Below the pieces are notes generated by a model that ran no database searches, was not told where the DNA came from, and saw only the letters and a list, made by a program, of their open reading frames with translations. The position numbers were made by a program, and so were the translations under genes. Below, piece after piece: positions 1 to 34,725 of a stretch of DNA of 64,000 nucleotides. The stretch is taken from assembly GCF_044324785.1 (NCBI RefSeq), contig NZ_CP172127.1; one strand, given 5' to 3'. Source of the stretch: Escherichia coli (lineage in GTDB: Bacteria > Pseudomonadota > Gammaproteobacteria > Enterobacterales > Enterobacteriaceae). The stretch's first letter is position 1. Every line of letters begins with the position of its first letter.

Positions 1-1742
1 GCTTCGTCTTCTTTTGCCTGCACAACAGGGATAAAAAAAGCATGCCCCAGCATATGTTCTCTATCGTATAAAACCTGGATGCGATCGTTAAGCGTCTGCA
101 ATAGACGAGGCAGATCAATACCTTTAATGACAGTATCTTTCAGAACAGTAATATCTGGCAGCATCGCTTCAAAATCAAATCTGCGACGTAGTGCAGTATC
201 AAGTGCAGTAAGCGAATGATCGGCAGTGTTCATGGTACCAATTAAATAAAGGTTATTCGGTACACTAAATGGAGTGGAAGAGTATGGCAGCAATACGCTA
301 AGCGATTCTGGCTCACCAGCCCGTTTAGATGGCTCAATAAGAGTAATTAGTTCACCAAAAATTTTTGAAATATTACCCCGATTTATTTCATCAATAATGA
401 GAACATAGTTTTCCTTTTTTTCTGAAGCTACGCTCTGAGTATTCAGAGGCAGATAACGTTGATTAATTAAATAGTTAAGGATACTGCGTACATAAGATGG
501 ATTATGTACTTTTGCTCGTGGATCCTGATAAACTTGCCGAATATCCTTCAAATAGGCATTGTAACCCTGTCCTAAATCCTCTTTTTTCGATTGTGACGGG
601 AAAATTCCAAAGTTGGTTTGACTTTTATACGTCAGCTGGAAGGCCTTACCCTGTTGTGTTTCCAGCGTGATATTTTCACCTTCAGATAAACGTTCTTGTA
701 GGCGAGTAAGTGCGCTATCCAACATTTCCTGCGCACCAGCATGACCAAAGGCGGCATCCTCGCATATCTGTTTAAAAATACCTGCCTTTATTTCGTATTT
801 TACATTACCGTCATCAGTAGTCTCAGCTCTTAAACCTTCAATAAACTCTTCATAACCAAAGCTCTGATGAAAGGTGATAAAACGCACTCGATTATCTTTG
901 ATAAGCTGATCATAAATCTTTTTCAACTCGCGACGTTTTTCACTCTCATCCTTACCCTCCTGCAGGGAGTAAGCGATCGGATCACAAATTTGTACAGCAA
1001 GCTCAATAGTACGATATGTTTTACCTGTACCTGGCGGGCCATAGAGAATTGTGTTTTTAGGCAATGGCGAACTTATAATATCATCTTCTTGCTCATTTTC
1101 TTGTAAAGCACTTTCGCTTCCAACTAAACCGATAGCATTTTTATCCTGAATTTCATACGCATAGAGATGCCAAAGTGACATATTCAGCTCAATAGGGTCG
1201 ATATCATCACCCAGCGCACGATTTAGCGTTTCTTTAAGATCAACATTGCGAGCCAGCCACTCCCGTTCTCCGGAAAGACCTAGCTGGAAATGGTTGTTGC
1301 AATAATTGTAGCAACTAAAAAAATTATTAACATTCACGACACTGCTAATTTTTGATGGGTATATTGCTGCAAAAGCACGATTACAAAGAGCCCTATATAC
1401 CTTATTTAATACTCCGTCCGCTTTAAGTTTGATAAGGCGTTCAATGACCCGATTATAATTTTCTTGTGTACACTCTTCTGCTATCTGACGGGTGAGCGTT
1501 AGAAGGTCTTTTTGTGCATTTTCAAATTCAACCAATGACATCCCTCCTTGCATCAGGCTGGAGACACCATTGTCACGTTCATACCATACCTGCCGAATCG
1601 TGGCTTCAGAAAAGTTTGGTTTTTCGGCCTGAATCTGTTCTACAAGCTGGCGGTAGTGTTTGCCCCAAACTGAATTGTATTGATTATTTTTTTCAATTTG
1701 AGCACGAAAGAAGGGGGCTAATGCTGATGAATCCTGAACCAT
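1..1742 (-). CDS. McrB-family GTPase (AAA+ NTPase subunit of a McrBC-like modification-dependent restriction system); N-terminal ~580 aa present, 3' end runs off the window
   Basis: Minus-strand frame is open from the ATG at 1742 to position 1, with a stop 2 codons upstream of the ATG. Reverse translation gives Walker A GPPGTGKT, the McrB hallmark FHQSFGYEEFIEG and Walker B LIIDEINRGN. The ~440-aa region N-terminal to the NTPase does not resemble the K-12 McrB DNA-binding domain. Confidence 0.75.
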   Translation of the reverse strand, partial: MVQDSSALAPFFRAQIEKNNQYNSVWGKHYRQLVEQIQAEKPNFSEATIRQVWYERDNGVSSLMQGGMSLVEFENAQKDLLTLTRQIAEECTQENYNRVIERLIKLKADGVLNKVYRALCNRAFAAIYPSKISSVVNVNNFFSCYNYCNNHFQLGLSGEREWLARNVDLKETLNRALGDDIDPIELNMSLWHLYAYEIQDKNAIGLVGSESALQENEQEDDIISSPLPKNTILYGPPGTGKTYRTIELAVQICDPIAYSLQEGKDESEKRRELKKIYDQLIKDNRVRFITFHQSFGYEEFIEGLRAETTDDGNVKYEIKAGIFKQICEDAAFGHAGAQEMLDSALTRLQERLSEGENITLETQQGKAFQLTYKSQTNFGIFPSQSKKEDLGQGYNAYLKDIRQVYQDPRAKVHNPSYVRSILNYLINQRYLPLNTQSVASEKKENYVLIIDEINRGNISKIFGELITLIEPSKRAGEPESLSVLLPYSSTPFSVPNNLYLIGTMNTADHSLTALDTALRRRFDFEAMLPDITVLKDTVIKGIDLPRLLQTLNDRIQVLYDREHMLGHAFFIPVVQAKEDE

Positions 1743-2077
1743 CTCTTAATCCAATATGTAGGGGGGAGGGAAATTGGGATAGCCTTATCTTATCGGATTA
1801 ATCTCAAAAATGTTAAATTTTGTGATAAAAAAATAACTTTCATCCTGAAATTACCTTCTGCCCTGGAGCCACCACATTTATCTGATGACTTAACTGCAAA
1901 ACGCATGATGTTGATGGCTCTCAGAGAAGGCTATAGCATTCTTTCATACGTAAAATCGCTACTCGTTTTTCAACCTGTGTGAGGTTTCTAGTTGCATAGG
2001 GAATCAACTGTTTTTAGGTAAACATCGTTTCCAGTAAATGGATATGCCGAAATTCAGAGGGTTCCAGTAACGACATT

Positions 2078-2945
2078 ATTGAAAGCAAACATACGACATT
2101 CATTTTGCTGATAACGCTGACGGATAGTGCTTCGCCACAATGTCATTCATCTTATCCACCAGATCCAGTCGCTTGAATGTGATGTGTCCACTGCCTTTCT
2201 GAAAGTAGCGAATAGTGAACAACTCATCTTCGAAAATCTGCTGATGCGGATTATCGCGCACAAAATCCATAAACCGGATGGAGACATCATGCCGGTTATC
2301 GGGAATGGTCTTCCCATCCAGCAGGTAGAACATCCGTTCCAGATCGGCAAGCTGATCTCGCCGCCAGCCCCAGTTCAGGCTGTAGCCCCATCTGTCATGC
2401 TTCACCAGATTGTTAACGATAATCTTCTTACCGAAATAACAGGGATTATTGGTTTTGTAGTCCCAGCTTAACCCTTTAAATACATTGATAATCCCACGTT
2501 CGAAAACATCCCGTTTATTGTGGTGGAGTTGTTCAAAGGTACTCAGGATGTTGGCTTCGCTAATAGCCGGGAGATCGCCCTCCTCCAGGTTCTTTGCCCA
2601 CTGACTGCGGGCTTCGGCATCCATCAGGGTCAACATCCCGGACTTCAGCATGAGATCGCGCCAGATACCGCGGTCGATATTTCGGGTGATCACCGGCATC
2701 GCTTTGTCGGTTGGCTGCATCAGCCAGCAATCAAAGGCATATCCATTCCGCATTGCCCAGGTTCCAGCCACATTACCGCCAATACTGGATGTCAGGCTGG
2801 AGATATCATCCAGTTTTTGGATTAACGTCGCTATCTGGTTCAGTGCACTATCACGACCCGTCACGATACGCTCAATACTGGTCGAGCAAATTAGCTCGTT
2901 ATGATCGGTTAAGACTTCAGCTTCTGTTTGCATAATCTTTCATCC
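2078..2945. repeat. Copy A of an ~865-bp direct repeat (second copy at 11018..11885, ~95% identical)
   Basis: Manual alignment of the two regions shows near-identity across the whole 277/285-aa ORF and ~20 bp of flank; weaker similarity continues to ~3050 versus ~11975. Confidence 0.85.
2100..2933 (-). CDS. Conserved island-associated hypothetical protein (277 aa), paralog of 11025..11858
   Basis: Complete ORF with ATG start; protein is ~96% identical to the second copy. No family can be assigned from sequence alone. Confidence 0.6.
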   Translation of the reverse strand: MQTEAEVLTDHNELICSTSIERIVTGRDSALNQIATLIQKLDDISSLTSSIGGNVAGTWAMRNGYAFDCWLMQPTDKAMPVITRNIDRGIWRDLMLKSGMLTLMDAEARSQWAKNLEEGDLPAISEANILSTFEQLHHNKRDVFERGIINVFKGLSWDYKTNNPCYFGKKIIVNNLVKHDRWGYSLNWGWRRDQLADLERMFYLLDGKTIPDNRHDVSIRFMDFVRDNPHQQIFEDELFTIRYFQKGSGHITFKRLDLVDKMNDIVAKHYPSALSAK

Positions 2946-3239
2946 GTAAAAAAATACACTCGCCGTTAGTAGCAAACGGATTATCCACTGGTGAAAGATT
3001 GGGTAAATAATGAGATTGAAAATTGGGAAGATGACTCGCAATAAATTATCTGGTCGCCTACGGATGGGCGATGGGCATATAAAGTAGCCTCCTGACGCAA
3101 GCGGTGAATGCTGAGTAAGATGCACTAACAATCTGGTACTGAATCCCCTCCTCACCGTCATACAAATCTGAAAAACCAAACAACTTCCGGTAAAATCCCG
3201 GCAAAAGCCGACGTTAAAAACACATTCAAAGGATAAAAA

Positions 3240-4792
3240 ATGACCAGTCTTCAGCAGCGCGCGGAGCTTCATCGCCAAATCTGGCAAATTGCTAACGATG
3301 TCAGAGGTTCGGTCGATGGATGGGACTTTAAGCAATACGTTCTGGGCGCGCTTTTCTACCGTTTTATCAGCGAAAATTTTTCCAGCTATATTGAAGCCGG
3401 TGATGACAGCATCTGTTATGCGAAACTGGATGACAGCGTAATTACTGATGACATTAAAGACGATGCCATCAAAACCAAAGGCTACTTCATCTACCCAAGT
3501 CAGCTTTTCTGCAACGTAGCTGCGAAAGCAAATACCAATGACAGACTGAATGCAGATTTAAACAGCATCTTCGTTGCTATCGAAAGTTCTGCTTACGGTT
3601 ACCCTTCAGAAGCTGACATCAAAGGTTTGTTTGCTGATTTCGATACCACCAGTAACCGCCTGGGTAACACCGTTAAGGATAAAAATGCCCGCCTGGCCGC
3701 GGTTCTGAAAGGGGTTGAAGGATTAAAACTTGGTGACTTCAACGAACATCAGATTGACCTGTTCGGCGATGCCTATGAGTTCCTGATTTCTAACTATGCG
3801 GCGAATGCTGGTAAGTCAGGCGGCGAGTTCTTTACACCGCAGCACGTCTCTAAGCTGATTGCACAACTGGCTATGCACGGGCAGACCCACGTTAACAAAA
3901 TCTACGACCCGGCAGCAGGTTCCGGTTCGCTGTTGTTGCAGGCTAAAAAACAGTTCGATGACCACATCATCGAAGAAGGCTTTTTCGGTCAGGAAATCAA
4001 CCATACGACCTATAACCTGGCGCGTATGAACATGTTTTTGCACAACATCAACTACGACAAGTTTGATATCAAGCTGGGCAATACGCTGACTGAGCCGCAC
4101 TTCAGAGATGAAAAACCGTTTGATGCCATCGTTTCTAACCCACCGTATTCGGTGAAATGGATTGGCAGCGATGATCCGACGCTGATTAACGATGAGCGTT
4201 TTGCCCCAGCTGGCGTCCTGGCCCCCAAATCAAAAGCTGACTTCGCGTTTGTATTACATGCGCTGAACTATCTTTCTGCCAAAGGTCGTGCTGCGATTGT
4301 CTGCTTCCCGGGCATTTTTTACCGTGGCGGCGCGGAGCAGAAAATCCGTCAGTATCTGGTTGACAATAACTATGTCGAAACCGTGATTTCACTCGCACCG
4401 AACCTGTTCTTTGGCACCACCATTGCCGTAAATATTCTGGTGCTGTCTAAACATAAAACGGATACCAAAGTTCAGTTTATTGACGCCAGCGAACTGTTCA
4501 AAAAAGAGACTAACAACAACATCCTGACCGATGCCCATATAGAAAAAATTATGCAGGTATTTGCCAGCAAGGAAGATGTTGCTCATCTGGCGAAATCTGT
4601 TGCGTTTGAGACTGTTGTCGCGAATGACTATAACCTGTCGGTGAGCAGCTATGTGGAAGCGAAAGATAACCGCGAAATTATCGATATCGGTGAGCTGAAT
4701 GCTGAGCTGAAAACCACGGTCAGCAAAATCGACCAGTTGCGCAAAGATATTGATGCGATTGTGGCTGAAATTGAAGGCTGCGAGGTGCAGAA

Positions 4793-4796
<4 letters not shown>
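3240..4796 (+). CDS. hsdM: Type I restriction-modification system methyltransferase subunit HsdM (type IC-like, EcoR124/Ecoprr family)
   Basis: 518-aa ORF with AAGGA ribosome-binding site; N6-adenine methyltransferase motif NPPY ([11 protein letters not shown]) and AdoMet motif DPAAGSGSL. Gene order M-S-R with hsdS starting inside the hsdM stop (ATGA) matches type IC organisation. Confidence 0.9.
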
Positions 4797-5962
<1,166 letters not shown>

Positions 5963-6083
5963 TTGACCATTATTACAGACCGGACCATCTTAATATCCGG
6001 TCAGTATATAGACTATTTTTTACACGCCGGAAGTCACCATTAACCCCCTTCCGGCCCTTGCCAGACGGCACAAAGGATGCGCT

Positions 6084-9000
6084 ATGACTCATCAAACACA
6101 CACCATTGCTGAATCCAATAACTTTATCGTTCTTGATAAGTACATCAAAGCTGAGCAAACAGGCGACAGCTATCAGAGCGAATCGGACCTGGAACGTGAA
6201 CTGATTCAGGACCTGCGGAATCAGGGCTATGAATTTATATCCGTAAAATCACAGTCGGCGATGCTGGTCAATGTTCGACAACAGGTTCAGAACCTCAATG
6301 GTGTGGTGTTTAATGACAGCGAATGGCGACGTTTCACGGAGCAGTATCTGGACAACCCGAGCGATGGTATTCTGGATAAGACCCGTAAAATCCATATCGA
6401 CTATATTTGCGACTTTATTTTTGATGACGGGCGTCTTGAGAATATCTATCTGATAGATAAAAAGAATCTCATGCGCAACAAGGTGCAGATTATCCAGCAG
6501 TTTGAACAGGCAGGTTCTCACGCTAACCGTTATGACGTCACGATCCTGGTTAATGGCTTGCCGCTGGTGCAAATCGAACTGAAAAAGCGCGGCGTGGCGA
6601 TTCGTGAGGCTTTCAACCAGATACATCGTTACAGTAAAGAGAGTTTTAACAGCGAAAATTCTCTGTTTAAGTATCTGCAACTGTTTGTCATTTCTAACGG
6701 CACCGATACCCGTTACTTTGCCAACACCACAAAGCGTGATAAAAACAGTTTTGACTTCACAATGAACTGGGCGAAATCAGACAACACGCTGATTAAAGAC
6801 CTCAAAGATTTTACCGCTACCTTTTTCCAGAAACATACTCTGCTTAATGTTCTGGTGAACTACAGCGTGTTCGATATTAGCCAGACGCTACTGGTGATGC
6901 GACCGTACCAGATTGCCGCCACCGAACGAATCTTATGGAAAATCAACAGCTCCTATAAAGCGAAAAACTGGTCTAACCCCGAAAGTGGTGGCTTTATCTG
7001 GCACACTACCGGTTCTGGTAAAACACTGACCAGCTTTAAAGCCGCGCGTCTGGCAACAGAACTGGACTTTATTGATAAAGTCTTCTTCGTGGTCGACAGG
7101 AAAGATCTCGATTACCAGACCATGAAGGAATATCAGCGTTTTTCGCCAGATAGTGTTAATGGCTCGGAAAATACCGCAGGCCTTAAACGAAATCTGGATA
7201 AGGACGATAACAAAATTATCGTCACCACTATTCAGAAACTTAATAACCTGATGAAAGCAGAAAGCGACCTGCCTGTATACAATCAGCAAGTGGTGTTTAT
7301 ATTTGATGAATGCCACCGCAGCCAGTTTGGAGAAGCGCAGAAAAACCTGAAGAAGAAATTCAAACGCTATTATCAGTTTGGTTTTACCGGTACCCCTATT
7401 TTCCCGGAAAACGCTTTAGGTTCAGAAACGACCGCCAGCGTATTTGGTCGTGAATTGCATTCATATGTGATTACCGATGCGATTCGAGATGAAAAAGTGC
7501 TTAAATTCAAGGTGGACTATAACGATGTGCGGCCACAGTTTAAGTCTTTAGAGACAGAAACCGACGAGAAAAAACTGAGTGCGGCTGAAAATCAACTGGC
7601 GTTCCTTCATCCCATGCGTATTCAGGAAATCACGCAATATATCCTGAACAACTTCCGCCAGAAGACCCACCGTACTTACCCCGGCTCCAAAGGTTTTAAT
7701 GCCATGCTGGCAGTAAGCAGCGTGGATGCCGCGAAAGCCTATTACGCGACATTTAAACGGTTACAAGAAGAAGCCGCTAATAAATCTGCAACTTATAAAC
7801 CACTGCGTGTTGCAACAATCTTCTCCTTTGCCGCTAATGAAGAACAAAATGCCATTGGTGAAATTTTCGATGAAACTTTTGATACCAGCGCAATGGACAG
7901 CAGTGCTAAAGAGTTTCTTGACGCTGCAATTCGTGAGTATAACAGCTATTTTAAAACTAACTTCAGCACCGACAGTAACGGTTTTCAGAACTACTATCGT
8001 GATTTAGCCCAACGGGTTAAAAATCAGGATATCGATCTGTTAATTGTCGTGGGGATGTTTTTAACCGGCTTCGATGCTCCAACATTGAACACGCTATTCG
8101 TCGATAAAAACTTGCGTTTTCACGGTCTGATGCAGGCATTTTCCCGCACCAACCGCATTTATGACGCCACTAAAACCTTCGGTAACATTGTCACTTTTCG
8201 GGATCTGGAACGCTCAACCATTGATGCCATAACGCTGTTTGGTGATAAAAATACCAAAAATGTGGTGTTAGAAAAGAGTTATGCAGAGTATATGGAAGGT
8301 TTTACTGATGCTGCCACCGGTGAAGCCAAACGCGGCTTTATGGCAGTAGTTTCAGAACTGGAACAACGGTTCCCTGACCCTGCCAGTATTGAAAGTGAAA
8401 AAGAGAAGAAAGACTTCGTAAAACTGTTTGGTGAATACCTGCGTGCCGAGAACATTCTGCAAAACTATGATGAATTTGCCACGCTGAAAGCCCTGCAACA
8501 AATCGATCTTAGCGATCCTGTTGCGGTAGAAAAATTCAAAGAAGAACATTATGTGGATGATGAAAAGTTCGCTGAATTACAAACGATTCGTCTCCCTGCT
8601 GATCGCAAGATTCAGGATTACCGTTCAGCCTATAACGATATTCGTGACTGGCAGCGCCGTGAGAAAGAAGCTGACAAAAAAGAAAAATCAACCACCGACT
8701 GGGATGACGTGGTTTTTGAGGTCGATTTGCTGAAGTCTCAGGAAATAAACCTGGATTATATCCTTGGACTGATTTTCGAACACAACAGACAAAACAAAGG
8801 TAAGGGCGAAATGACCGAAGAGGTCAAACGCTTAATTCGTTCAAGCCTTGGGAACCGTGCCAAAGAAGGATTGGTGGTCGATTTTATTCAGCAAACGAAC
8901 CTGGATGATTTGCCGGATAAAGCCAGCATCATTGACGCGTTCTTTACCTTTGCTCAACGCGAACAGCAACGTGAAGCAGAAGCATTGATCAAAGAAGAAA

Positions 9001-9200
9001 ATCTCAATGAAGAGGCGGCGAAACGCTATATTCGCACGTCTTTAAAACGCGAATACGCCACCGAAAATGGCACGGAATTAAACGAGACATTGCCAAAACT
9101 CAGTCCGTTAAATCCGCAATATAAGACGAAAAAACAGACGGTTTTCCAGAAGATCGTCGCGTTTATTGAGAAGTTTAAAGGTGTAGGCGGGCAGATATAA
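6084..9200 (+). CDS. hsdR: Type I restriction enzyme endonuclease/translocase subunit HsdR (type IC-like)
   Basis: 1038 aa; superfamily-2 helicase motifs TGSGKT (Walker A) and DECHRSQ (DEAH box), N-terminal nuclease region; AAGGA ribosome-binding site; follows hsdMS as in type IC loci. Confidence 0.9.
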
Positions 9201-9214
9201 TGTATTAATCCGAA

Positions 9215-9244
9215 CCTGATCTGGCAGATAGCTGTCAGATCAGG
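9215..9244. terminator. 9-bp-stem inverted repeat between convergent hsdR and abiEii (possible bidirectional terminator)
   Basis: CCTGATCTG-12 nt-CAGATCAGG immediately after the hsdR stop; no strong U-tract, so efficiency is uncertain. Confidence 0.35.
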
Positions 9245-10955: not shown

Positions 10956-11017
10956 ATTCGCCTCCTGAGTCATTGCATAAAGAGTAGCAAAAATACGACA
11001 TTTTAGATAGCAAACAT

Positions 11018-12314: not shown

Positions 12315-12344
12315 AACGATGTTCCGTATTAAGGAGGTTAAAAC

Positions 12345-23476: not shown

Positions 23477-23490
23477 TACGCACATGACAA

Positions 23491-23516: not shown

Positions 23517-23539
23517 AAAACAGGATATAAAAGCTAACA

Positions 23540-26349: not shown

Positions 26350-26370
26350 TCAGGATTATTATTAATAAAA

Positions 26371-27057: not shown

Positions 27058-27097
27058 CTATTGTCCCGCCAATTGTTTTATAATTGGCGGGATGTCA

Positions 27098-30000
27098 TTA
27101 TTTTTTGAACTCAACCAGTCTCTTATATTGGGGGGTATTAATTAACTTTTTCTTAGCTTTGATAATATCGACCAAACAGATTTCTATTTCCTCAGCACAT
27201 CCTCGTTGATTATCCATAATCAAACTGATAAGTTCTAATGTTTGAGATGGAAATTTATTTGGTATCTCTGACTCGTATAATTTTTTCAGTGTATAATGAG
27301 GCCATTCAAATGGAATGATCCACGGTTTTACAGTATCGAATATATCCTGAAACCTATCCTGGCCCGCAATACAGAGTTGCACTAAATTCTCTGAAATTCC
27401 CGGCGTCCTTAACTTTTGAGATTTTGGCCATATCTTCTTTAAAAATATTTTTATACAGTTATCCCAATATTCAGAATATTGTTCTCCTGAGCTTTCAATT
27501 GCATCTACAAGAGTATTAGTTGAGATTATCAGGCTCTCCGATGGAAGATTTCTAAACGCTTTTTGATAATCGTCAAGAACATAGTCTTTTGTCGGTTCAA
27601 GTGCAGCATATGTCAAAAAGATAGTATATTGTTTTTTAGCATCAGTATCTCCAAGATCTTGATAGTGTTCCGCTGTTTTCAAAAAAGCTTGTTTAAATGC
27701 AGCAAGCAATGGGGCATAAAGACGAGGGGTCCATAAGAAACCAGGCCATACTGATTTTGCTTCAAGAAAATTACTATCCCAAATAAATAATGGTAGAAGG
27801 TACTTTTTCGCCCAATTTGTGTCAACTCTGAATAATGGGATCAAATTTGAGGCTAAAATAACTCTGGAATTTCTGAAAGAGATATTATGGGTGTCACATA
27901 GCTTTGTGAAAAAGACTTTCAATTTATCTGGTATGCCCTCATTATCATGCGGCTTACCATTGAGCCATATATTTATTAATGCTTGTGTAATATTTCCTAC
28001 AGGATGATTTATAGCTTGTATTATTGATTTATAATCATCTGTTTCATCGTAACTAAAATCTATAATACGCTGACAATATGTAGTATAAACATCATTCAAC
28101 TCACTCATTCCTGTGGAAATTTTCGCTAACCATTGAGCGAGGCTGTGCTGAATCTCAGGGAATAAATCATCTGGAATATTTAATAATAATGGTCCTATTT
28201 CTTGCCAGGACTCCTGAATCAGGTCTTTATCACACCAAGTCTGTAAACCTGAACGCCAATATTTGCATGGCCAAATATCCTCCATGGCTAATTCGCGAAG
28301 CACACAAACAATCATCGGTAAGTTTTGTTTACATATTTCGATCCAGTTATCACGTTCAAACGGAGATGATTTCTTATTATCAGCCCTTTCTCTTAACCAG
28401 TTGATGATGCCGTCCTTTGTATCTGGGACCATTTCTGTAATTATTTCCTCTTCAAAATCGGGATCTCCTGTTCCACTCATCCAATGCGAAAATTCGTCTC
28501 TTTCATTTGTGGTCAATTTCCAGTAAGGATGTTTTTCTGATAAAAAATCCAATTTGTTCTGTGCATTTATATTGAGCTTTACACCTGAAAATTGTAGTTT
28601 TGATAAGAACAACCATATATTTCTTTCGACTATATTTTCCCATTCATTCTCATTAATAGAAATATTGAATAATTCCTGTGAATATCCTAGTGTTATTGCA
28701 TTTTCAAGCTTTCGTTGTTCAATGGCAGTTAGTGTTTTACCTTGCAAAACGAAGAGTCGGCAAACTTCACGATGAGTATCAATAGCCCACAACCAATAGC
28801 CATTTTGTTCCAGTAATAGATTCACCCATTCTTTAGCATCAATGCATTCATTATAACTGGCAGAAAAAATGACCAAACGCTTAAATACTGGATATGGAAA
28901 TGACCACCAATTTAAAGCAAGTTTTTTAGCTTTGTTTTTATCTATTTCATAGATTTGCAACCAAGAATCTCTCAAAAGTTCAATTAGTTTCACCCAATTA
29001 CGATAACCTCTATTTTGCCAATGAGGCGTAATTGATGGTAAGTCCCAAAAAGATCGATCACTTGCACTTATGGAATTATCATTCAGTTCAAATTGTAAAT
29101 CCATCGCATCAAGAAGTAATTGTTGAAGATCATCAAACAAGGATGGCAAGATTTCCTTCCATATTGATTTATTTTCTAAATCTTGTAGCCAATAAAGATC
29201 TGTTGATATATTTAATTCATGCCTTACAGATTGTGAAATATTTTTTTCATTTTGGGATGATTTATTAAAATTTAGTTGAAAAGGTTGTTGCAGGATAAGG
29301 GTAGGCGCTAAAATTTTTCTTAGCGCTAACCGGCAAGCCATATTGAAATTGCCATGTTGAAATTGATCTATCCAATAATTATTTTCATATACAGATGAAT
29401 TGGTCCCTATTCTTCCTGCTAAGAATAAACGCCAAATAGCTCGTAAATTCTGAGATGGGATCGCATGTAGTCCTTCTTGCTTGATACGTTTGAGAGACTG
29501 CTCCTCATTGTTTCTTTCTAATCGTTCAATCTCACTCAACCTATTACTTATTAAATTTGATAACTGGGGATGCAGTTTTCCCCCTTGCTTTGCTAACCAA
29601 ATGATTAAGTCAACGTTACCAATATGTTTTATCAGCCATAAACAAATATATACCATAACAGAATCCCACTGACAAAATTCGCCACCAAAAGAAGCTAAAC
29701 TCATTCGTGGTGAAAGTTTGTATGAGGAAGGGCGATTAATCAGGCTAAATTGAAGATTAGGATCAAATTCAGAATGGGCCGGGGTATTAAAGCGAGGTAG
29801 ATCTGGATATCTATAAGATTTTTTTTCAAATTCCCATAACCAACTTAGTGTGGGAGCAGGATTCATTTCTGCCAGGCGTTTTGCGGGCTTACCGGAATTA
29901 TCACTTAATGCCCATAAAACCCTTCCAACAAAATTATCCTCTTGAGTACTTGTCGAAGGATGGGCAATTACATATTGGGCTACAATTCTTTCTTTACCCA

Positions 30001-30889
30001 TACTTCCATTGTTATATATTTCTCCCCATATTTTTAATGTCTCATGAAGTAATTCATGCTTCTTAGTCGTTTTGTACAAAACAGGAATGACCCCTTTGGC
30101 TTCCCAAATTTCAGCCGTTGTAGATTCTTCATTTGGTTTATAATCTGCAAAGGCATATGCTTGAGGGGTATATTCGCCTAACATCCTATCTGCTGCTAAA
30201 GCATCCATCATATAGCGTAATACAGGATCATTAATACTATATCCTATAAAACAAACAACATAGTTTCTAAATAGTTCACTTACAAATCTGGCAGCCCATC
30301 TTTCTGTTAAATAAGCACATCCGAAATCACCACTGGTAACTACCAGACGGTTCAACTCTGTATGATTTTTTTTATCATGAGGTAATATTCCGTGCAAGTA
30401 AACCACTCCATTCCATCTACTATTTTTTGGAACAGGTAACATAGGTGCCAAATATGATGTTAGTTTCTTCTCCATATTTTTCGCAGCTATGTCAAAAAGA
30501 TGATCAAAATTTGTGGTGACAAGTCGTATGCGCCCACCTTGATCTTGAGATAATTGTAAGAGAGCATTATGAGTTGTTAGGGCATTTTTTCTTCGAACCT
30601 TTGGTTTCAATATCTGAGACAATGCATAGCGTACAGTTTGTTTATTTCCTACTATTCTTCTCTCAAGAAGTTCTAATGTTGTATCATATTGGTAAGCTTT
30701 ATAGGCGGCTTCTTCGAGAGCATTCCGTGTTTCACCGATTCTTTGATATATGTTGTCAACCAAATCTCCAAACCCCGGTAATCCAGCAGGATATGAAATT
30801 CCCGCTCCGCAGAAGAATACAACTTTCCCCTCTTCGTGTGCTTGTAGTAATGAATCGGGAATATCTGGACCATTAGTAATAAACTGCAT
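27098..30889 (-). CDS. Large SIR2-domain protein (1263 aa): N-terminal sirtuin-like NADase domain plus ~1000-aa helical C-terminal region; candidate defence-associated sirtuin (DSR-like) single-gene defence protein
   Basis: N-terminal Rossmann motif VVFFCGAGISYPAGLPGFGDL (GAGIS), TTNFDHLF (TTN-D motif) and a conserved His in VYLHGIL, as in SIR2/DSR/ThsA NADases; no similarity to housekeeping CobB is evident; monocistronic on the minus strand. Confidence 0.7.
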   Translation of the reverse strand: MQFITNGPDIPDSLLQAHEEGKVVFFCGAGISYPAGLPGFGDLVDNIYQRIGETRNALEEAAYKAYQYDTTLELLERRIVGNKQTVRYALSQILKPKVRRKNALTTHNALLQLSQDQGGRIRLVTTNFDHLFDIAAKNMEKKLTSYLAPMLPVPKNSRWNGVVYLHGILPHDKKNHTELNRLVVTSGDFGCAYLTERWAARFVSELFRNYVVCFIGYSINDPVLRYMMDALAADRMLGEYTPQAYAFADYKPNEESTTAEIWEAKGVIPVLYKTTKKHELLHETLKIWGEIYNNGSMGKERIVAQYVIAHPSTSTQEDNFVGRVLWALSDNSGKPAKRLAEMNPAPTLSWLWEFEKKSYRYPDLPRFNTPAHSEFDPNLQFSLINRPSSYKLSPRMSLASFGGEFCQWDSVMVYICLWLIKHIGNVDLIIWLAKQGGKLHPQLSNLISNRLSEIERLERNNEEQSLKRIKQEGLHAIPSQNLRAIWRLFLAGRIGTNSSVYENNYWIDQFQHGNFNMACRLALRKILAPTLILQQPFQLNFNKSSQNEKNISQSVRHELNISTDLYWLQDLENKSIWKEILPSLFDDLQQLLLDAMDLQFELNDNSISASDRSFWDLPSITPHWQNRGYRNWVKLIELLRDSWLQIYEIDKNKAKKLALNWWSFPYPVFKRLVIFSASYNECIDAKEWVNLLLEQNGYWLWAIDTHREVCRLFVLQGKTLTAIEQRKLENAITLGYSQELFNISINENEWENIVERNIWLFLSKLQFSGVKLNINAQNKLDFLSEKHPYWKLTTNERDEFSHWMSGTGDPDFEEEIITEMVPDTKDGIINWLRERADNKKSSPFERDNWIEICKQNLPMIVCVLRELAMEDIWPCKYWRSGLQTWCDKDLIQESWQEIGPLLLNIPDDLFPEIQHSLAQWLAKISTGMSELNDVYTTYCQRIIDFSYDETDDYKSIIQAINHPVGNITQALINIWLNGKPHDNEGIPDKLKVFFTKLCDTHNISFRNSRVILASNLIPLFRVDTNWAKKYLLPLFIWDSNFLEAKSVWPGFLWTPRLYAPLLAAFKQAFLKTAEHYQDLGDTDAKKQYTIFLTYAALEPTKDYVLDDYQKAFRNLPSESLIISTNTLVDAIESSGEQYSEYWDNCIKIFLKKIWPKSQKLRTPGISENLVQLCIAGQDRFQDIFDTVKPWIIPFEWPHYTLKKLYESEIPNKFPSQTLELISLIMDNQRGCAEEIEICLVDIIKAKKKLINTPQYKRLVEFKK

Positions 30890-31038
30890 CTCGTTGCCTG
30901 GTTAGTTTGTGAAATGAATTTTGATTATAAATCTTCTTTATTGGTTCATGTAAGAAATCGGCACTGCCTTTTGACCGATAGCTGATATAGTATGTCTAAG
31001 TTATGATGATATAACATTTCTTACCTTGGATAGTAACA

Positions 31039-32004
31039 ATGCCTTTAGATTTAAGTAAAACTTTAGTTATTGGCATCAGCGCGACTGCGCTTTTTGATAT
31101 GAGTGAATCAGATCACATGTTTCGCGAAACCTTTGTGACTGATCCTGATAGCGCCATTGAAAAATACCGCGCTTATATGCTAGAACACGAAAACCAACCT
31201 TTACAGCCCGGAACAGGCTACCCCTTAGTCAAAGCGTTGCTGGGTCTGAACCAGTACCGTCAACCGGATGATAAATCGCCGTTGGTTGAGGTTGTTGTGA
31301 TGTCACGTAACAGCCCTGATACCGGTATCCGTGTTCTGAATACTATTCGCCATGACAGGCTCGATATCACTCGATCGGCCTTTACGGCAGGCGAAACCGT
31401 TGCCGATTACCTTGATGCCTTTGATGTGGATCTGTTTTTAACGACCAACGTCGAGGATGCGCAAAAGGTGATTGATTCCCGATTCTGCGCCGCTGCAATC
31501 CTGAAAGATCCTCCTTCCGACGCATCTGATATCCCGGAAGGGCAAGTGCGCATTGCTTTTGACGGCGACGCGGTACTTTTTTCCGATCAAAGCGAACTGG
31601 TTTATAAGACCCAAGGAATGGCTGCCTTTCATGCTCAGGAAGACGCGCAGCAGGATATCCCTATGGAAGAGGGGCCTTATGCCACTTTGCTAAAAAAAAT
31701 AGCCAAGCTTCAGGAACGATTGCCGACCCGCGTTGAGTATTCTCCTGTTCGTATTGCGCTGGTGACAGCCCGAAATAGCCCTTCGGAAATGCGCGTTATT
31801 AAAACGCTAAGAAGCTGGGGGGTATATGTCGATGAAGCTTTTTTTCTTGGCGGTGTAGAGAAAACAAAAGTTCTGAAGGCGTTTAAGCCACACATTTTCT
31901 TTGACGATCAGGATGTACATTTGATCGCGGCTGCAAAGGTAGTACCTTCTGGTAAAGTACCTTATGCCAGTAACTCCGAACTGGCAGAACGTGAAGCATC
32001 GTGA
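31039..32004 (+). CDS. HAD-superfamily 5'-nucleotidase-like protein (321 aa)
   Basis: HAD motif I-like FDGDAVLF (DxDxV); overall resemblance to the bacterial/eukaryotic cytosolic 5'-nucleotidase family from memory; divergent from the SIR2 gene with a 149-bp intergenic region. Confidence 0.55.
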   Translation: MPLDLSKTLVIGISATALFDMSESDHMFRETFVTDPDSAIEKYRAYMLEHENQPLQPGTGYPLVKALLGLNQYRQPDDKSPLVEVVVMSRNSPDTGIRVLNTIRHDRLDITRSAFTAGETVADYLDAFDVDLFLTTNVEDAQKVIDSRFCAAAILKDPPSDASDIPEGQVRIAFDGDAVLFSDQSELVYKTQGMAAFHAQEDAQQDIPMEEGPYATLLKKIAKLQERLPTRVEYSPVRIALVTARNSPSEMRVIKTLRSWGVYVDEAFFLGGVEKTKVLKAFKPHIFFDDQDVHLIAAAKVVPSGKVPYASNSELAEREAS

Positions 32005-32013
32005 TTATCGCTG

Positions 32014-32048
32014 ACAAACCATTTAGTCATTAAGGCTGGATGGTTTGT
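32014..32048. terminator. Inverted repeat (9-bp stem ACAAACCAT / ATGGTTTGT) between the convergent nucleotidase and HNH genes
   Basis: Read directly, 10 bp after the nucleotidase stop. Confidence 0.4.
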
Positions 32049-32081
32049 ATACCACACGCAAAATAACTGCCCTACCCCAGA

Positions 32082-32957
32082 TCAATGCTCTCCTCTGAAC
32101 ACCTCTTTTCTGTGCCATTCAACAAACTGCTCGCCCGGATAATTTTCTTTAACCGGTGGCAACGCAATCGCCTTTCCCGCAAAATCCCAGAACAGTCGCT
32201 GTACCACTCCACCACCATTTACCGCGCCGGAAACCACCACACGCATATTTTCATCCAAGCCAATCGAACCGCGATCAAACGCTTTATGATGGATTGCGCA
32301 CAATGCCAGGCCATTAGGTACTTCACAAGGGCCATGGTGCTGCTTCCATCTGATATGAGCGGCTTCCAGAGCAATCGGCGCATTGTCGTGGCGCATGTTA
32401 AAGCCGCAGATAGCGCACTGATAATTGTAAGCACGTAGCACCATCTGGCGAAACTTCGGATCGCGTTGACGGAGAGAGGTGCGAATATCAAAACCCATCT
32501 CGTCAGCGATCTCTTCCTGAATACTGGCCGGGAAATGCGCCTCCAGGAGCTGCTGCGCCAGCGTATCAATTAACCTGTGATTTTTTGCCACCAACGCAAA
32601 ATTATCGGCATCAAATCCACCAGCAACATTATATTCAATGAGTTCTCGTCGGGGCGGCTGGCGGCTACCACTGGTTGAGCACAGTTCCGCGTTATGTAGT
32701 TCCCAGAAGCCATCGCCCTTCAGACGCCAGAACGGCATGTCCGGGCGCTGGTCACGGCGCTGCGGTCCATAACGTTCCAGGAGATCCAACAGGGGCTCGT
32801 AGATTTCAGAACCATAGTTAAACAGGCGACCATGACCCTGCCGATAGTGTGAGAGAACGTACAGCAGCAATAATGGCTTATGTGGCGCACGTTGTTCGCC
32901 TTTGCGCCAGATGGTGATATTTGATATCGCTTGCTTTAGGGTTTTGTCAGAGGTCAT
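32082..32957 (-). CDS. HNH-motif nuclease with uncharacterised N-terminal domain (candidate modification-dependent type IV restriction endonuclease)
   Basis: C-terminal HNH-like motif YNYQCAICGF...AAHI...LCAIHHKAFD; start set at the first in-frame ATG (the ORF track begins at a TTG at 33002); monocistronic. Confidence 0.55.
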   Translation of the reverse strand: MTSDKTLKQAISNITIWRKGEQRAPHKPLLLLYVLSHYRQGHGRLFNYGSEIYEPLLDLLERYGPQRRDQRPDMPFWRLKGDGFWELHNAELCSTSGSRQPPRRELIEYNVAGGFDADNFALVAKNHRLIDTLAQQLLEAHFPASIQEEIADEMGFDIRTSLRQRDPKFRQMVLRAYNYQCAICGFNMRHDNAPIALEAAHIRWKQHHGPCEVPNGLALCAIHHKAFDRGSIGLDENMRVVVSGAVNGGGVVQRLFWDFAGKAIALPPVKENYPGEQFVEWHRKEVFRGEH

Positions 32958-33172
32958 TGCGTTGGAGAATCCATGAGCACATATTTGCGATGATGCTCGC
33001 AACTATATGTACATTCAAGGCATTATTGCAGACATCCTTTTTCTCTGGCGGTTCTGTACCTGGCAGATAGAATTCTGATAACAACGGTAAAAAATACAGC
33101 GACCAACCAGTCCTAAGCGGGCTGGTTGGTCTTTTAAATTTAAACATCAGCCGAGGAATAACGGCATTCAAC

Positions 33173-34441
33173 TCACTCGCCATTACCCCGATTGATCTTC
33201 GCATAGTCAAACGGCGTAATCGCTCTCTCCCGATTCGCATCCAGAAAATCGGCCCACCACTGCAACATCAGCTTGCGCTCATCCAGATGTTCCGCTTTAT
33301 GGATATACGCCGCTCGCACCGAATTGCGCTCCATATGACTCATCTGTCGTTCCACCGCATCCTTCGACCATAACCCGGACTCAATTAACGAGCTACAGGC
33401 CATTGTGCGGAAGCCGTGGCCGCAAACTTCAACCTTAGTGTCATAACCCATCACCCGTAGCGCACTGTTCACCGTGTTTTCACTCATGGGCTTACGCGGA
33501 TCGTGATCGCCAATAAAAATCAGCTCATGCTCACCACAGAACTGCTTTATCTGCTTCAGGATCGCCAGCGCCTGCTTTGAAAGCGGCACCAGATGCGGTG
33601 TGCGCATCTTTGTTCCTCGCTGAGAATGTTTCACGCCGGGAATCGGTTCTCGCTCAGGAGGGATGGTCCACATTGATGTTTCAAAATCGATCTCTGACCA
33701 ACGAGCAAAACGCAGCTCACTGGACCGAATAAAGATAAGCAGAGTGAGTTCTGTCGCCCAGCGGGTTAGCGGCCTGCCGGTATAGCCGTCTATTTTCTCA
33801 AGCAACTCAGGGATGCGCTTTAACTCCAGCGCCGGACGATGCTGTCGATTACTGGAAGCAACCGCCCCCGCCATCTCTTGCGCCGGATTGTAATCAATTA
33901 ACCCGCTTTGCACTGCATAACGCATGATGGCCGTGGTGCGCTGTTGAAGGCGGGAAGCCACTTCAAGGCGTCCGGATTTCTCCACGGCTTTAATAGGAAT
34001 TAACAGATCGCGGGTGCCTAGTTCAGCAATATTGCGAGTACCAATTGCCGGGAAGATATTGTCCTCCAGGCTCTTTTTTACACGATTAGCATGATCTTCC
34101 GACCATTTTTGGTTGGTTACGAACCACTCTCTGGCAACCTTCTCGAAAGTAATAATCTCTTTCGCCTGCTCTTCTTTCACAGCACGCTTATGCTCACGAG
34201 GATCGATACCAGCAGCTACCAGCTTTCTGGCCTCTTCCCTTTTCTTCCGCGCATCCGCCAGTGAAACATCCGGGTAAACGCCGAACGCCATCAAATGTTG
34301 TTTACCGCCAAAACGGAAACGAAATCGCCAATACTTTGAACCGCCAGGTTTTACAAGTAAGGACATGCCGTCGCCGTCAACAAGTGAATACTCTTTCTCC
34401 TCTGGTTTCGCAGAACGAACTTTAGTATCCGTTAGGGCCAT
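33173..34441 (-). CDS. intB: P4-family tyrosine integrase (IntB-like), adjacent to the tRNA-Leu 3' end
   Basis: 422 aa from MALTDTKVRSAKP...; catalytic-domain motifs of phage integrases (HGFRTMA..., HxxR region); followed by a hairpin plus U-tract terminator at ~33088..33131 on the minus strand. Confidence 0.9.
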   Translation of the reverse strand: MALTDTKVRSAKPEEKEYSLVDGDGMSLLVKPGGSKYWRFRFRFGGKQHLMAFGVYPDVSLADARKKREEARKLVAAGIDPREHKRAVKEEQAKEIITFEKVAREWFVTNQKWSEDHANRVKKSLEDNIFPAIGTRNIAELGTRDLLIPIKAVEKSGRLEVASRLQQRTTAIMRYAVQSGLIDYNPAQEMAGAVASSNRQHRPALELKRIPELLEKIDGYTGRPLTRWATELTLLIFIRSSELRFARWSEIDFETSMWTIPPEREPIPGVKHSQRGTKMRTPHLVPLSKQALAILKQIKQFCGEHELIFIGDHDPRKPMSENTVNSALRVMGYDTKVEVCGHGFRTMACSSLIESGLWSKDAVERQMSHMERNSVRAAYIHKAEHLDERKLMLQWWADFLDANRERAITPFDYAKINRGNGE

Positions 34442-34640
34442 AGTGGTCTTCCTTCCATTGGTATCTCGTGAGTATACAAGCAATATCGAATCGGCAAATA
34501 TACTCATTAGTATACTCACAAGCCTGTTGATGTGGGTTGAGTCAGGTTGACTTCAGTTGAGGAGAAAAGCTGGAAAAGCCTTGTGTAGCGCGGATTTCAG
34601 GCATAAAAAAAGACCTCAGTTGAGGTCTATTTACATACTT

Positions 34641-34725
34641 TTGGTGCCGAAGGCCGGACTCGAACCGGCACGTATTTCTACGGTTGATTTTGAATCAACT
34701 GCGTCTACCGATTTCGCCACTTCGG
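34641..34725 (-). tRNA. leuX: tRNA-Leu (anticodon CAA), leuX
   Basis: Reverse complement reads GCCGAAGTGGCGAAATCGGTAGACGCAGTTGATTCAAAATCAACCGTAGAAATACGTGCCGGTTCGAGTCCGGCCTTCGGCACCA, an 85-nt type II tRNA with CAA anticodon and CCA end. Confidence 0.97.

What the first reader, a model, noticed from the sequence alone, without database searches (positions are those of the whole stretch)
1..34725. leuX-integrated mosaic defence island stacking at least six defence-type modules
Going away from the tRNA: P4-type integrase, HNH nuclease, nucleotidase, SIR2 protein, a type I R-M operon (R-M-S order), a CP4-like block with WYL regulator/GTPase, CbtA-CbeA and an AbiE-like pair, a type IC R-M operon (M-S-R order) and a McrB-family GTPase. 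The island is at least 34.6 kb and its distal end is outside the window. In K-12 the leuX island carries different cargo and the mcrBC-hsd-mrr region is separate, so this content is strain-specific and the assembly looks like sequential acquisitions.
Basis: partly seen in the sequence, partly recalled or inferred. Interest (0 to 1): 0.6.

Follow-up and report, generated by a model that had tools for sequence, protein, structure and literature searches.

The report
Two stacked defence islands at leuX
The region next to the leuX tRNA gene is real accessory DNA packed with anti-phage and restriction genes, but it is two elements stacked one behind the other at a hotspot already described as the busiest defence-gene site in E. 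coli, so it is an ordinary example rather than a new kind of system.

Summary
The region is accessory and sits at leuX (tRNA-Leu CAA, 34642..34726, minus strand).

It is not one island whose far end lies outside the window. A 25.2-kb island carrying an integrase (9442..34641) is bounded by the leuX 3' end (attL core 34642..34659) and by a displaced, 1-nt-deleted copy of that end (attR core 9425..9441). Behind it lies an older islet without an integrase: a type IC R-M system, DUF4942 and McrBC-like genes in the window, plus McrC, a second SBD-HNH gene and an HNH gene outside it. In E. coli 1303 this islet sits directly next to leuX. Near-identical draft assemblies show it ends at the nanS stop codon, about 3.35 kb left of the window. 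The leuX–nanS interval is therefore about 38 kb.

Recognised defence modules in the window:
- an EcoWI-like phosphorothioate-dependent nuclease
- Dsr1
- a type IB-like R-M system
- AbiE
- an EcoR124-family type IC R-M system
- a partial McrBC-like system

There are also two candidates: the PDC-S08 nucleotidase and a 228-aa membrane protein with an Abi-like fold.

leuX is the published "hotspot #37", occupied in 97% of E. coli. No step of how the region works was shown experimentally here. Verdict: a new member of a known kind, of low interest.

The parts
1..1742 (-). McrB-family AAA+ NTPase (first 580 of 684 aa; its 3' end and the partner mcrC lie outside the window). Part of islet B.
   Evidence: NCBIfam McrB matches only the AAA+ core, 105 bits against a cut-off of 637. 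Pfam shows a split AAA_5 domain and an unassigned N-terminal 215 aa. The full gene plus McrC (PF10117) is seen in L006, which is 99.99% identical to the window.
2100..2933 (-). DUF4942 protein, copy a (islet B). It forms an 884-bp direct repeat, 95.5% identical, with copy b.
   Evidence: PF13708; repeat shown.
3240..4796 (+). hsdM, type IC R-M
   Evidence: PADLOC MTase_I, E 2.7e-118.
4793..5962 (+). hsdS, type IC R-M
   Evidence: PADLOC Specificity_I, E 5.8e-123. The recognition domains differ from E. coli 1303: homology gap at 4846..5234.
6084..9200 (+). hsdR, EcoR124-family type IC
   Evidence: Full-length match to PDB 2w00 (EcoR124I HsdR) at 2253 bits. EcoR124_C Pfam domain.
9387..9441 (.). 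Displaced original leuX terminator hairpin plus attR core (9425..9441, TGGTGC-GAAGGCCGGAC). This is the junction between islet B and island A.
   Evidence: Matches from other genomes to islet B stop at exactly 9441.
9620..10567 (-). AbiEii nucleotidyltransferase toxin
   Evidence: PADLOC AbiEii, E 8.4e-128; PF08843.
10560..10955 (-). AbiEi / DUF6088 antitoxin-regulator
   Evidence: PADLOC AbiEi, E 5.3e-53.
11025..11858 (-). DUF4942 protein, copy b (island A)
   Evidence: PF13708; repeat with copy a.
11973..12680 (-). CbtA toxin (11973..12314) and CbeA/YeeU antitoxin (12345..12680)
   Evidence: PF06755 and PF06154. No PADLOC hit.
12680..14001 (-). RadC (12680..13153) and DUF932 (13183..14001), CP4-type backbone genes
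   Evidence: TIGR00608, 155 bits, above cut-off. RefSeq annotation of the orthologues.
14237..15191 (-). 317-aa hypothetical gene, frameshifted in this lineage at about 15058
   Evidence: tblastn splits it into two reading frames at residue 44/45.
15784..16734 (+). YagK/YfjJ (inovirus Gp2-like, 15784..16398) and AlpA-type excisionase/regulator (16516..16734)
   Evidence: PF11726 and PF05930; phrog_66, excisionase.
16954..19487 (-). 261-aa hypothetical, YeeP-like GTPase (17752..18765) and WYL-domain protein (18804..19487)
   Evidence: PF01926 MMR_HSR1; PADLOC WYL, E 1.3e-16.
20063..26349 (+). Type I R-M operon hsdR (20063..23476), hsdM (23540..25174), hsdS (25171..26349); type IB-like
   Evidence: PADLOC REase_I, E 4.5e-274; MTase_I, E 5e-192; Specificity_I, E 2e-160. 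EcoEI_R_C Pfam domain. The EcoAI-family model scores below its cut-off.
26371..27057 (+). 228-aa membrane protein with two transmembrane helices and an all-helical domain; Abi-like fold, unannotated
   Evidence: No Pfam, PADLOC or NCBIfam hit. AlphaFold2 pLDDT 85.8. AFDB matches to 'phage abortive infection protein', TM-score up to 0.76. Genomic contexts.
27062..30967 (-). Dsr1 single-gene cassette (CDS 27098..30889), GC 0.36
   Evidence: NF041818, 1670 bits, above cut-off; PADLOC Dsr1. Insertion limits come from comparison with K. grimontii.
31039..32004 (+). PF06189 5'-nucleotidase, the PADLOC candidate system PDC-S08
   Evidence: PADLOC PDC-S08, E 6.7e-134; Pfam, E 8.5e-119.
32082..32957 (-). 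SBD-HNH phosphorothioate-dependent restriction endonuclease, EcoWI-like
   Evidence: NF045808, 445 bits. 290 of 291 residues identical to the E. coli W protein in the same island. Predicted mass 33.43 kDa against 33.4 kDa published for EcoWI (PMC7461809).
33173..34441 (-). P4-type (IntB-like) tyrosine integrase
   Evidence: Arm-DNA-bind_3 + Phage_int_M + Phage_integrase. 81% amino-acid identity to K-12 IntB.
34642..34726 (-). leuX tRNA-Leu(CAA); attL core is 34642..34659

Best explanation
The leuX–nanS interval in this Escherichia lineage holds two accessory elements laid down one after the other.

The older one, islet B, has no integrase. In the window it is 1..9424; in full it runs about 12.8 kb to the nanS stop codon. 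It carries an EcoR124-family type IC R-M operon, DUF4942, an McrBC-like pair, a second SBD-HNH nuclease and a ScoMcrA_N/HNH gene.

Later, a 25.2-kb island with an IntB-type integrase (island A, 9442..34641) recombined its attP with the 3' end of leuX. This rebuilt a functional leuX from the island's own copy of the tRNA end and pushed the old tRNA end and its terminator to 9387..9441, where they now form attR.

Island A has two arms. One is a CP4-type backbone: AlpA, YagK/YfjJ, GTPase, WYL, DUF932, RadC, CbeA/CbtA and DUF4942. The other is a defence arm whose contents change by cassette exchange:
- an EcoWI-like phosphorothioate-dependent nuclease
- the PDC-S08 nucleotidase
- a 3.9-kb Dsr1 insertion
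- an Abi-like 228-aa membrane protein
- a type IB-like R-M operon with variable HsdS recognition domains
- AbiE at the far end

Inferred from the known families, not shown here: each module acts independently. The R-M and type IV enzymes cut unmodified or modified incoming DNA. Dsr1 depletes NAD+ on infection. AbiE arrests growth.
For: Anatomy of the junction:
- The attR core at 9425..9441 is unique in the window, and 0 of 100 shuffles give a match.
- The 55 nt ending at the core reproduce the leuX terminator hairpin, the ATTTRCATAC motif and the tRNA 3' end.
- Megablast matches to the left module stop at exactly 9441.

Independence of the two elements:
- E. coli 1303 has that module directly against an intact leuX, with no integrase.
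- Island A occurs in E. coli W and Eco_23-2667 in front of a different second island, yet with the same 1-nt-deleted attR core.
- In complete E. coli genomes, island A covers at least 80% of the query in 13 of 5426, islet B in 142 of 5426, and the junction between them in 0 of 5426.

Not an assembly artefact:
- The composite is found 99.8-100% identical in independent draft assemblies, which also show the distal end at nanS.

Internal turnover in island A:
- The Dsr1 cassette has defined limits. It is absent from K. grimontii and replaced by other genes in E. coli W.

Gene integrity and module identities:
- Substitutions against relatives fall mostly at third codon positions, so the genes are under purifying selection.
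Against: - Excision or integration activity was not shown. The attR core is imperfect (17 of 18 nt, with a deletion), which may hinder excision.
- The order of events is inferred from comparative anatomy, not from a phylogeny.
- In about 12 genomes (TUM18781 type) island A is fused to the distal remnant without any attR. Homologous recombination, for example between the DUF4942 repeats, therefore also shapes the locus, and some junctions are not integrase products.
- The origin of islet B as a decayed island is inferred only from its DUF4942 gene and from its leuX-proximal flank resembling the leuX–intB spacer of K-12 (75% over 177 nt).
- No defence function was tested.
Confidence: 0.85

Rival explanations
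1. This is one 38-kb island acquired as a single unit, with its true attR at or beyond nanS.
For: The whole leuX–nanS interval is accessory. The arrangement is stable across independent draft assemblies.
Against: - There is an internal attR with a displaced leuX terminator.
- No leuX-like repeat exists at the distal end in E. coli 1303.
- Each half occurs alone in other genomes.
- K-12 keeps remnants of the distal SBD-HNH/HNH genes next to nanS although its cargo is otherwise different.
Confidence: 0.05
2. Islet B was never an integrase-borne island. It is a fixed hotspot segment whose cargo turns over by homologous recombination through the conserved flanks (leuX and nanS) and through internal repeats such as DUF4942.
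For: - Hochhauser et al. report that 68% of hotspot #37 occupants have no detectable mobile element.
- HsdS recognition domains and the McrBC-versus-AbiE content differ between genomes sharing the same frame.
- TUM18781-type genomes show fusions made by recombination, without an attR.
Against: - Islet B's leuX-proximal flank is homologous to the leuX–integrase spacer of K-12.
- It contains DUF4942, the terminal gene of CP4-type islands.
- Both are expected of a decayed island. The two mechanisms are not mutually exclusive.
Confidence: 0.35
3. Island A is a P4-like phage satellite or a cryptic prophage, mobilised by capsid packaging.
For: It has a P4-type integrase and an AlpA homologue. P4-like satellites are reported at hotspot #37.
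Against: - No P4 satellite hallmark gene (primase, sid, psu, delta) and no phage structural gene appeared among the PHROGs, Pfam, NCBIfam or RefSeq annotations of any ORF examined.
- The backbone is the CP4-44/CP4-57 type.
Confidence: 0.03
4. The junction is an assembly chimera, or the window is an artificially altered sequence.
For: - No complete RefSeq E. coli genome has the junction.
- The core flank is at most 97.7% identical to any of 5426 complete genomes.
Against: - Independent NCBI assemblies carry the same junction at 99.8-99.99% identity.
- Divergence is concentrated at third codon positions in both core and island genes.
Confidence: 0.01

Closest known systems
E. coli defence hotspot #37 at leuX (Hochhauser et al. 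2023, PMC10121019; reviewed in PMC12707154) and the Salmonella tRNA-leuX hypervariable region (Bishop et al. 2005, cited in PMC12707154)
   Same: - Same anchor (leuX) and an arm-type integrase next to the tRNA.
- Dense, replaceable defence cargo.
- Type IB and IC R-M systems, AbiEii and phosphorothioate-related functions are all reported there.
- The same defence arm is found at leuX in Salmonella Havana.
   Different: This particular two-layer combination is absent from all 5426 complete RefSeq E. coli genomes. I did not find it described in the papers searched.
The leuX island of E. coli W (ATCC 9637), source of the characterised enzyme EcoWI
   Same: - Same backbone at about 97% nucleotide identity: int, SBD-HNH, nucleotidase, hsdRMS, WYL, GTPase, through to CbtA, DUF4942 and AbiE.
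- Same imperfect attR core.
- The SBD-HNH protein is identical at 290 of 291 residues.
   Different: - W has a 582-aa plus an 88-aa hypothetical gene where this window has the 228-aa gene plus Dsr1.
- In W the element behind attR is a second integrase island (HerA, Ser/Thr kinase), not the type IC/McrBC islet.
K-12 KpLE2 and the CP4-44/CP4-6/CP4-57 cryptic elements
   Same: - KpLE2 occupies the same leuX–nanS interval and has an IntB integrase 81% identical to the one here.
- CP4-type elements share the GTPase / YagK-YfjJ / AlpA / DUF932 / RadC / CbeA-CbtA / DUF4942 gene set. This rests on my own knowledge of the K-12 annotation plus the Pfam hits.
   Different: KpLE2 cargo is metabolic (fec, sgc, yjh) and riddled with IS elements. 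None of the defence genes found here is present in K-12, apart from short remnants of the distal SBD-HNH/HNH pair.

Membership tests
tRNA-integrated genomic island with P4-type integrase | Tyrosine integrase with an arm-binding N-terminal domain, next to the 3' end of a tRNA gene | tested here: met
   PF13356 + PF22022 + PF00589. The integrase lies 200 nt from the leuX 3' end.
tRNA-integrated genomic island with P4-type integrase | Direct repeat of the tRNA 3' end at the far boundary | tested here: met
   17-nt core at 9425..9441 against the 18-nt core at 34642..34659, one deletion, plus a homologous terminator flank.
tRNA-integrated genomic island with P4-type integrase | Variable presence among strains and atypical composition | tested here: met
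   13 of 5426 genomes. GC 0.33-0.52 per module against 0.49 in the flank.
tRNA-integrated genomic island with P4-type integrase | Excision and integration activity | not testable with these tools
   Needs PCR for attP/attB junctions or a recombination assay.
E. coli defence hotspot #37 | Accessory DNA at leuX, between conserved flanking core genes, carrying at least one recognised defence system | tested here: met
   Flanked by ahr/idn on one side and nanS/nanM/nanC/fimB on the other. Six recognised systems.
P4-like phage satellite | Hallmark genes psu, delta, sid and alpha (primase) in addition to the integrase and AlpA | tested here: not met
   Only the integrase and AlpA were found. No hallmark appeared in the PHROGs, Pfam or RefSeq annotations. 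Not every ORF was scanned with PHROGs.
Dsr1 (defence-associated sirtuin 1) | Full-length match to the curated equivalog model, with an N-terminal SIR2 domain | tested here: met
   NF041818, 1670 bits against cut-off 1400, residues 1-1262 of 1263. PF13289 SIR2_2.
Dsr1 (defence-associated sirtuin 1) | Phage-triggered NAD+ depletion | not testable with these tools
   Needs an infection assay.
Type IC R-M (EcoR124 family) | hsdM-hsdS-hsdR gene order, and an HsdR of the EcoR124 type with the EcoR124_C domain | tested here: met
   Gene order. HsdR matches 2w00 over its full length at 2253 bits. PF12008.
Type IB R-M (EcoAI/EcoEI family) | HsdR reaches the EcoAI-family equivalog model | tested here: inconclusive
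   NF046051 scores 231.6 bits, below the cut-off of 550, and covers residues 205-725 only. The EcoEI_R_C Pfam domain is present. There is an extra N-terminal region of about 200 aa (DUF4145, weak).
AbiE | Adjacent AbiEi (antitoxin/regulator) and AbiEii (nucleotidyltransferase toxin) genes | tested here: met
   PADLOC E 5.3e-53 and 8.4e-128. The two genes overlap by 8 nt.
McrBC | McrB AAA+ NTPase followed by McrC (PF10117) | tested here: met
   AAA_5 and McrB_lid, then a 436-aa PF10117 gene, seen in L006, which is 99.99% identical to the window. McrC itself lies outside the window.
McrBC | Orthology to E. coli K-12 McrB (5-methylcytosine-specific) | tested here: not met
   NF008457 scores 105 bits against a cut-off of 637, in the AAA+ core only. 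The N-terminal DNA-reading domain is unassigned. Its specificity is therefore unknown.
SBD-HNH phosphorothioate-dependent REase (EcoWI type) | Sulfur-binding domain plus HNH domain, above the curated cut-off; near-identity to the characterised enzyme | tested here: met
   NF045808, 445 bits against 180. PF26340 + PF13391. 290 of 291 residues identical to the E. coli W protein. That this W protein is EcoWI is inferred from the enzyme's name and its 33.4 kDa mass (PMC7461809).
PADLOC candidate PDC-S08 | Match to the PDC-S08 model | tested here: met
   E 6.7e-134 over 304 of 323 profile positions. Whether it defends against phage is untested; the only paper found merely lists the name.
Abi-type membrane protein ('phage abortive infection protein', as AFDB entries are named) | Sequence match to a Pfam or PADLOC Abi model | tested here: not met
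   The 228-aa protein has no Pfam hit even at E<=10 and no PADLOC hit.
Abi-type membrane protein ('phage abortive infection protein', as AFDB entries are named) | Shared fold | tested here: inconclusive
   Foldseek against AFDB50: eight proteins annotated 'phage abortive infection protein' at E 1e-5 to 9e-4, TM-score 0.42-0.76. No PDB match.

The most novel reading that the evidence does not exclude
Island A belongs to a family of leuX islands shared across genera (Escherichia, Salmonella, Klebsiella), with a fixed internal slot between hsdS and the nucleotidase gene that swaps single-gene defence cassettes. Two of its conserved passengers would be real single-gene anti-phage systems that nobody has characterised: the 228-aa two-transmembrane protein with an Abi-like fold, which also sits immediately after the integrase in P2-like prophages, and the PF06189 5'-nucleotidase (PDC-S08).
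Probability: 0.3. Interest if true: 0.4.

Novelty: new member of a known kind. Interest (0 to 1): 0.2.

Why it matters
The value is mainly as a clean worked example. It shows how the busiest E. coli defence hotspot grows: a new integrase-borne island lands on leuX and pushes the older, integrase-less islet outward, with the displaced tRNA end still readable. Inside the island, single genes such as Dsr1 drop into a fixed slot, and 884-bp DUF4942 repeats are positioned to delete whole modules.

It also flags two conserved passengers of unknown function that would be cheap to test for anti-phage activity: the 228-aa membrane protein and the PDC-S08 nucleotidase. It does not change what is known about defence islands.

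Tried and rejected
- **Mismatch-only search for a second leuX 3' end** (18-mer, up to 3 mismatches) found only the tRNA itself. The copy at 9425..9441 differs by a deletion, and it was found by reading and aligning the sequence.
- **No further leuX repeat** in the loci from E. coli 1303 or Eco_23-2667.
- **Artificially mutated sequence.** I suspected this because everything is about 97% identical to complete E. coli genomes. I rejected it: differences fall at third codon positions, and exact copies exist in public assemblies.
- **Plasmid-borne copy of island A** (NZ_AP023207.1). It is a mislabelled chromosome fragment carrying valS, pepA, lptFG and fim.
- **Rfam scan of 1..35000** found only the tRNA.
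- **PADLOC** does not recognise the McrB-like or McrC proteins as type IV enzymes.
- **The 228-aa protein** has no Pfam, NCBIfam or PADLOC hit and no PDB fold match. The idea that it is an obligatory fourth subunit of the type I R-M operon was dropped, because distant relatives sit alone or next to prophage integrases.
- **EcoWI accession.** I could not find in the EcoWI papers a statement of which accession the enzyme corresponds to.

Full report
**1. Observation**

The window holds one tRNA gene, tRNA-Leu(CAA), at 34642..34726 on the minus strand.

- **Integrase** (33173..34441, minus): Arm-DNA-bind_3 + Phage_int_M + Phage_integrase, the P4-type architecture.
- **SBD-HNH nuclease** (32082..32957): passes NCBI's curated model for phosphorothioated-DNA-binding restriction endonucleases, 445 bits against a cut-off of 180.
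- **PF06189 5'-nucleotidase** (31039..32004): also matches the PADLOC candidate PDC-S08.
- **SIR2 protein** (27098..30889): full-length Dsr1, 1670 bits against a cut-off of 1400.
- **hsdR-M-S operon** (20063..26349).
- **CP4-type block** (11025..19487): WYL, GTPase, AlpA, YagK/YfjJ, DUF932, RadC, CbeA, CbtA, DUF4942.
- **AbiEi/AbiEii** (9620..10955).
- **hsdM-S-R operon** (3240..9200): its HsdR matches the EcoR124I HsdR structure sequence over all 1038 residues at 2253 bits, which confirms type IC.
- **McrB-family gene** running off the left edge (1..1742).

GC content varies from 0.33 to 0.52 between modules, against 0.49 in the core flank.

**2. Two elements, not one**

It is inside.

- At 9425..9441 the sequence TGGTGCGAAGGCCGGAC repeats the leuX 3' end (TGGTGCCGAAGGCCGGAC, 34642..34659) with one base deleted. 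The match is unique in the window and none of 100 shuffles produced one.
- The 40 nt to its left reproduce, in diverged form, the terminator hairpin and the ATTTRCATAC motif that follow leuX.
- Megablast matches from other E. coli genomes to the left module end at exactly 9441.
- In E. coli 1303 that module continues at this point straight into an intact leuX, with no integrase.

So 9387..9441 is the original leuX terminator and tRNA end, displaced when a 25.2-kb island (island A, 9442..34641) integrated and supplied its own copy of the tRNA end and its own terminator.

**3. Comparative support**

Coverage in 5426 complete E. coli genomes:

| Segment | Genomes with at least 80% coverage |
|---|---|
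| Island A | 13 |
| Left module (islet B) | 142 |
| 1-kb probe across the junction | 0 |

- E. coli W and Eco_23-2667 carry island A in front of a different neighbour, a second integrase island with HerA and Ser/Thr kinase genes. They have the same 1-nt-deleted attR core.
- Strain Z0117EC0040 has islet B behind yet another CP4-type island. Stacking at leuX is therefore recurrent.
- The composite is not an artefact. Independent NCBI assemblies match the window at 99.8-100% across the junction and across the defence arm.
- The proteins used to find these assemblies are widely sampled. The exact DUF4942a and 228-aa proteins are listed in 211 and 387 blocks of the assembly collection, though only 24 blocks were read for each.
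- The host is a divergent lineage. Its core flank is at most 97.7% identical to any complete E. coli genome.
- The divergence is natural. Differences in both core and island genes fall mostly at third codon positions, which also indicates purifying selection on the island genes.

**4. The distal end**

Locus L006 extends 7.9 kb left of the window. It shows, in order, the full McrB (684 aa), McrC (436 aa, PF10117), a second SBD-HNH gene (290 aa), a ScoMcrA_N/HNH gene (216 aa), and then intact nanS, nanM, nanC and fimB.

The nanS stop codon lies about 3.35 kb left of window position 1, so the whole leuX–nanS interval is about 38.0 kb. No leuX repeat occurs at that end in E. coli 1303. K-12, whose interval holds the unrelated KpLE2 cargo, still keeps short remnants of the SBD-HNH/HNH pair next to nanS. 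The outer part is therefore old.

**5. Mosaicism inside island A**

- Compared with the homologous island of Klebsiella grimontii, homology stops at 27061 and resumes at 30968. Dsr1, with its terminator and promoter, is thus a 3.9-kb single-gene insertion.
- E. coli W has two other hypothetical genes in place of the 228-aa gene and Dsr1.
- HsdS recognition domains differ between otherwise 97%-identical islands.
- Salmonella Havana carries the same defence arm at its own leuX, 93% identical over 25596..33031.
- The two DUF4942 genes form an 884-bp direct repeat, 95.5% identical and 8925 bp apart. Recombination between them would remove AbiE, attR and the type IC system.
- About a dozen genomes of the TUM18781 type have island A fused to the distal remnant with no attR. 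That is consistent with this kind of event having occurred.

**6. How it works**

Integration by the IntB-type integrase (81% identical to K-12 IntB) at the leuX 3' end is inferred from the anatomy of the two att sites. The activities of the modules are inferred from their families.

- The two type I enzymes methylate the host's own DNA and cut unmodified DNA.
- The SBD-HNH enzyme is 290 of 291 residues identical to the E. coli W protein, and its predicted mass of 33.43 kDa matches the 33.4 kDa published for EcoWI. EcoWI cuts GpsAAC/GpsTTC phosphorothioated DNA and blocks dnd+ plasmids (PMC7461809).
- The McrBC-like pair should cut modified DNA. Its N-terminal reading domain is unassigned, so its target is unknown.
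- Dsr1 is an NAD+-depleting sirtuin effector (my own knowledge of the family).
- AbiE is a toxin-antitoxin abortive-infection pair.
- WYL/GTPase and CbtA/CbeA are backbone genes without a recognised defence role.

**7. What is already known**

leuX is "hotspot #37" of Hochhauser et al. 2023. It is occupied in 97.3% of E. coli genomes, 97.4% of those occupants carry a defence system, and 31 system types are recorded there, including AbiEii (PMC10121019). A 2025 review lists type IB and type IC R-M systems and phosphorothioate-related functions there, and extends the hotspot to other Enterobacteriaceae (PMC12707154). The finding is therefore an instance of a described phenomenon. Only the particular two-layer combination is undescribed in the sources I could search.

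**8. A side observation**

The 228-aa gene after hsdS (26371..27057) has no Pfam, NCBIfam or PADLOC match.

- It has two N-terminal transmembrane helices around a conserved DWGxFGSxxGG motif, followed by a helical domain.
- Its predicted fold matches AFDB entries annotated "phage abortive infection protein", with TM-scores up to 0.76, but no solved structure.
- Distant relatives sit immediately after the integrase of P2-like prophages, or alone.
- It is a plausible stand-alone Abi or exclusion protein, untested.

**9. Verdict**

This is a new member of a known kind, of low interest.

Noticed in passing
window 26371..27057 (+): An unannotated 228-aa protein with two transmembrane helices follows hsdS. 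It has no Pfam, PADLOC or NCBIfam hit. Its predicted fold resembles AFDB 'phage abortive infection protein' entries. Distant relatives lie right after the integrase in P2-like prophages. It is a candidate single-gene defence or exclusion protein.
   Followed up: partly
window 31039..32004 (+): The PF06189 5'-nucleotidase matches the PADLOC candidate PDC-S08. It is conserved beside the type I R-M operon in the E. coli, Salmonella and Klebsiella leuX islands, whether or not Dsr1 is present. I found no functional study.
   Followed up: partly
window 14237..15191 (-): A 317-aa hypothetical gene that is intact in relatives is split by a frameshift at about 15058 in this lineage. It is either a pseudogene or a sequencing error.
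   Followed up: partly
window 2070..2953 and 10995..11878: An 884-bp direct repeat (95.5% identical) formed by the two DUF4942 genes. Recombination between the copies would delete AbiE, attR and the type IC R-M system. TUM18781-type genomes show a fusion consistent with such events.
   Followed up: partly
window 34932..41035 (ahr, idnK, idnD, idnO, idnT, idnR): The core-side flank is itself polymorphic. Several genomes (TUM18781 type and E. coli 1303) lack the idn operon, and TUM18781 has only a fragment of ahr. This explains why many matches stop at window 34932.
   Followed up: partly
L016 (NZ_AP023207.1, 'plasmid pMTY18781-2'): This 93.8-kb RefSeq record, labelled a plasmid, carries chromosomal core genes (valS, pepA, lptFG, holC, fimB/E) and leuX with island A. 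It looks like a mislabelled chromosome fragment.
   Followed up: partly
window 34727..64000: The core genes are at most 97.7% identical to any of 5426 complete RefSeq E. coli genomes (yjgR 94%, pepA 96% against one of them). Yet identical sequence exists in independent draft assemblies, some of whose proteins are labelled E. coli. The host seems to be a divergent Escherichia lineage with no close relative among the complete genomes. I did not identify it.
   Followed up: partly
L005 28524..30531 (E. coli W): In the slot that holds the 228-aa gene plus Dsr1 here, E. coli W has a 582-aa and an 88-aa hypothetical gene of unknown function. This may be another defence cassette.
   Followed up: no
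L006 11192..13246 (window 1..1742 and beyond): The McrB-like protein has its AAA_5 domain split by an insertion of about 170 residues and an unassigned N-terminal 215 residues. Its DNA-modification specificity cannot be predicted.
   Followed up: partly
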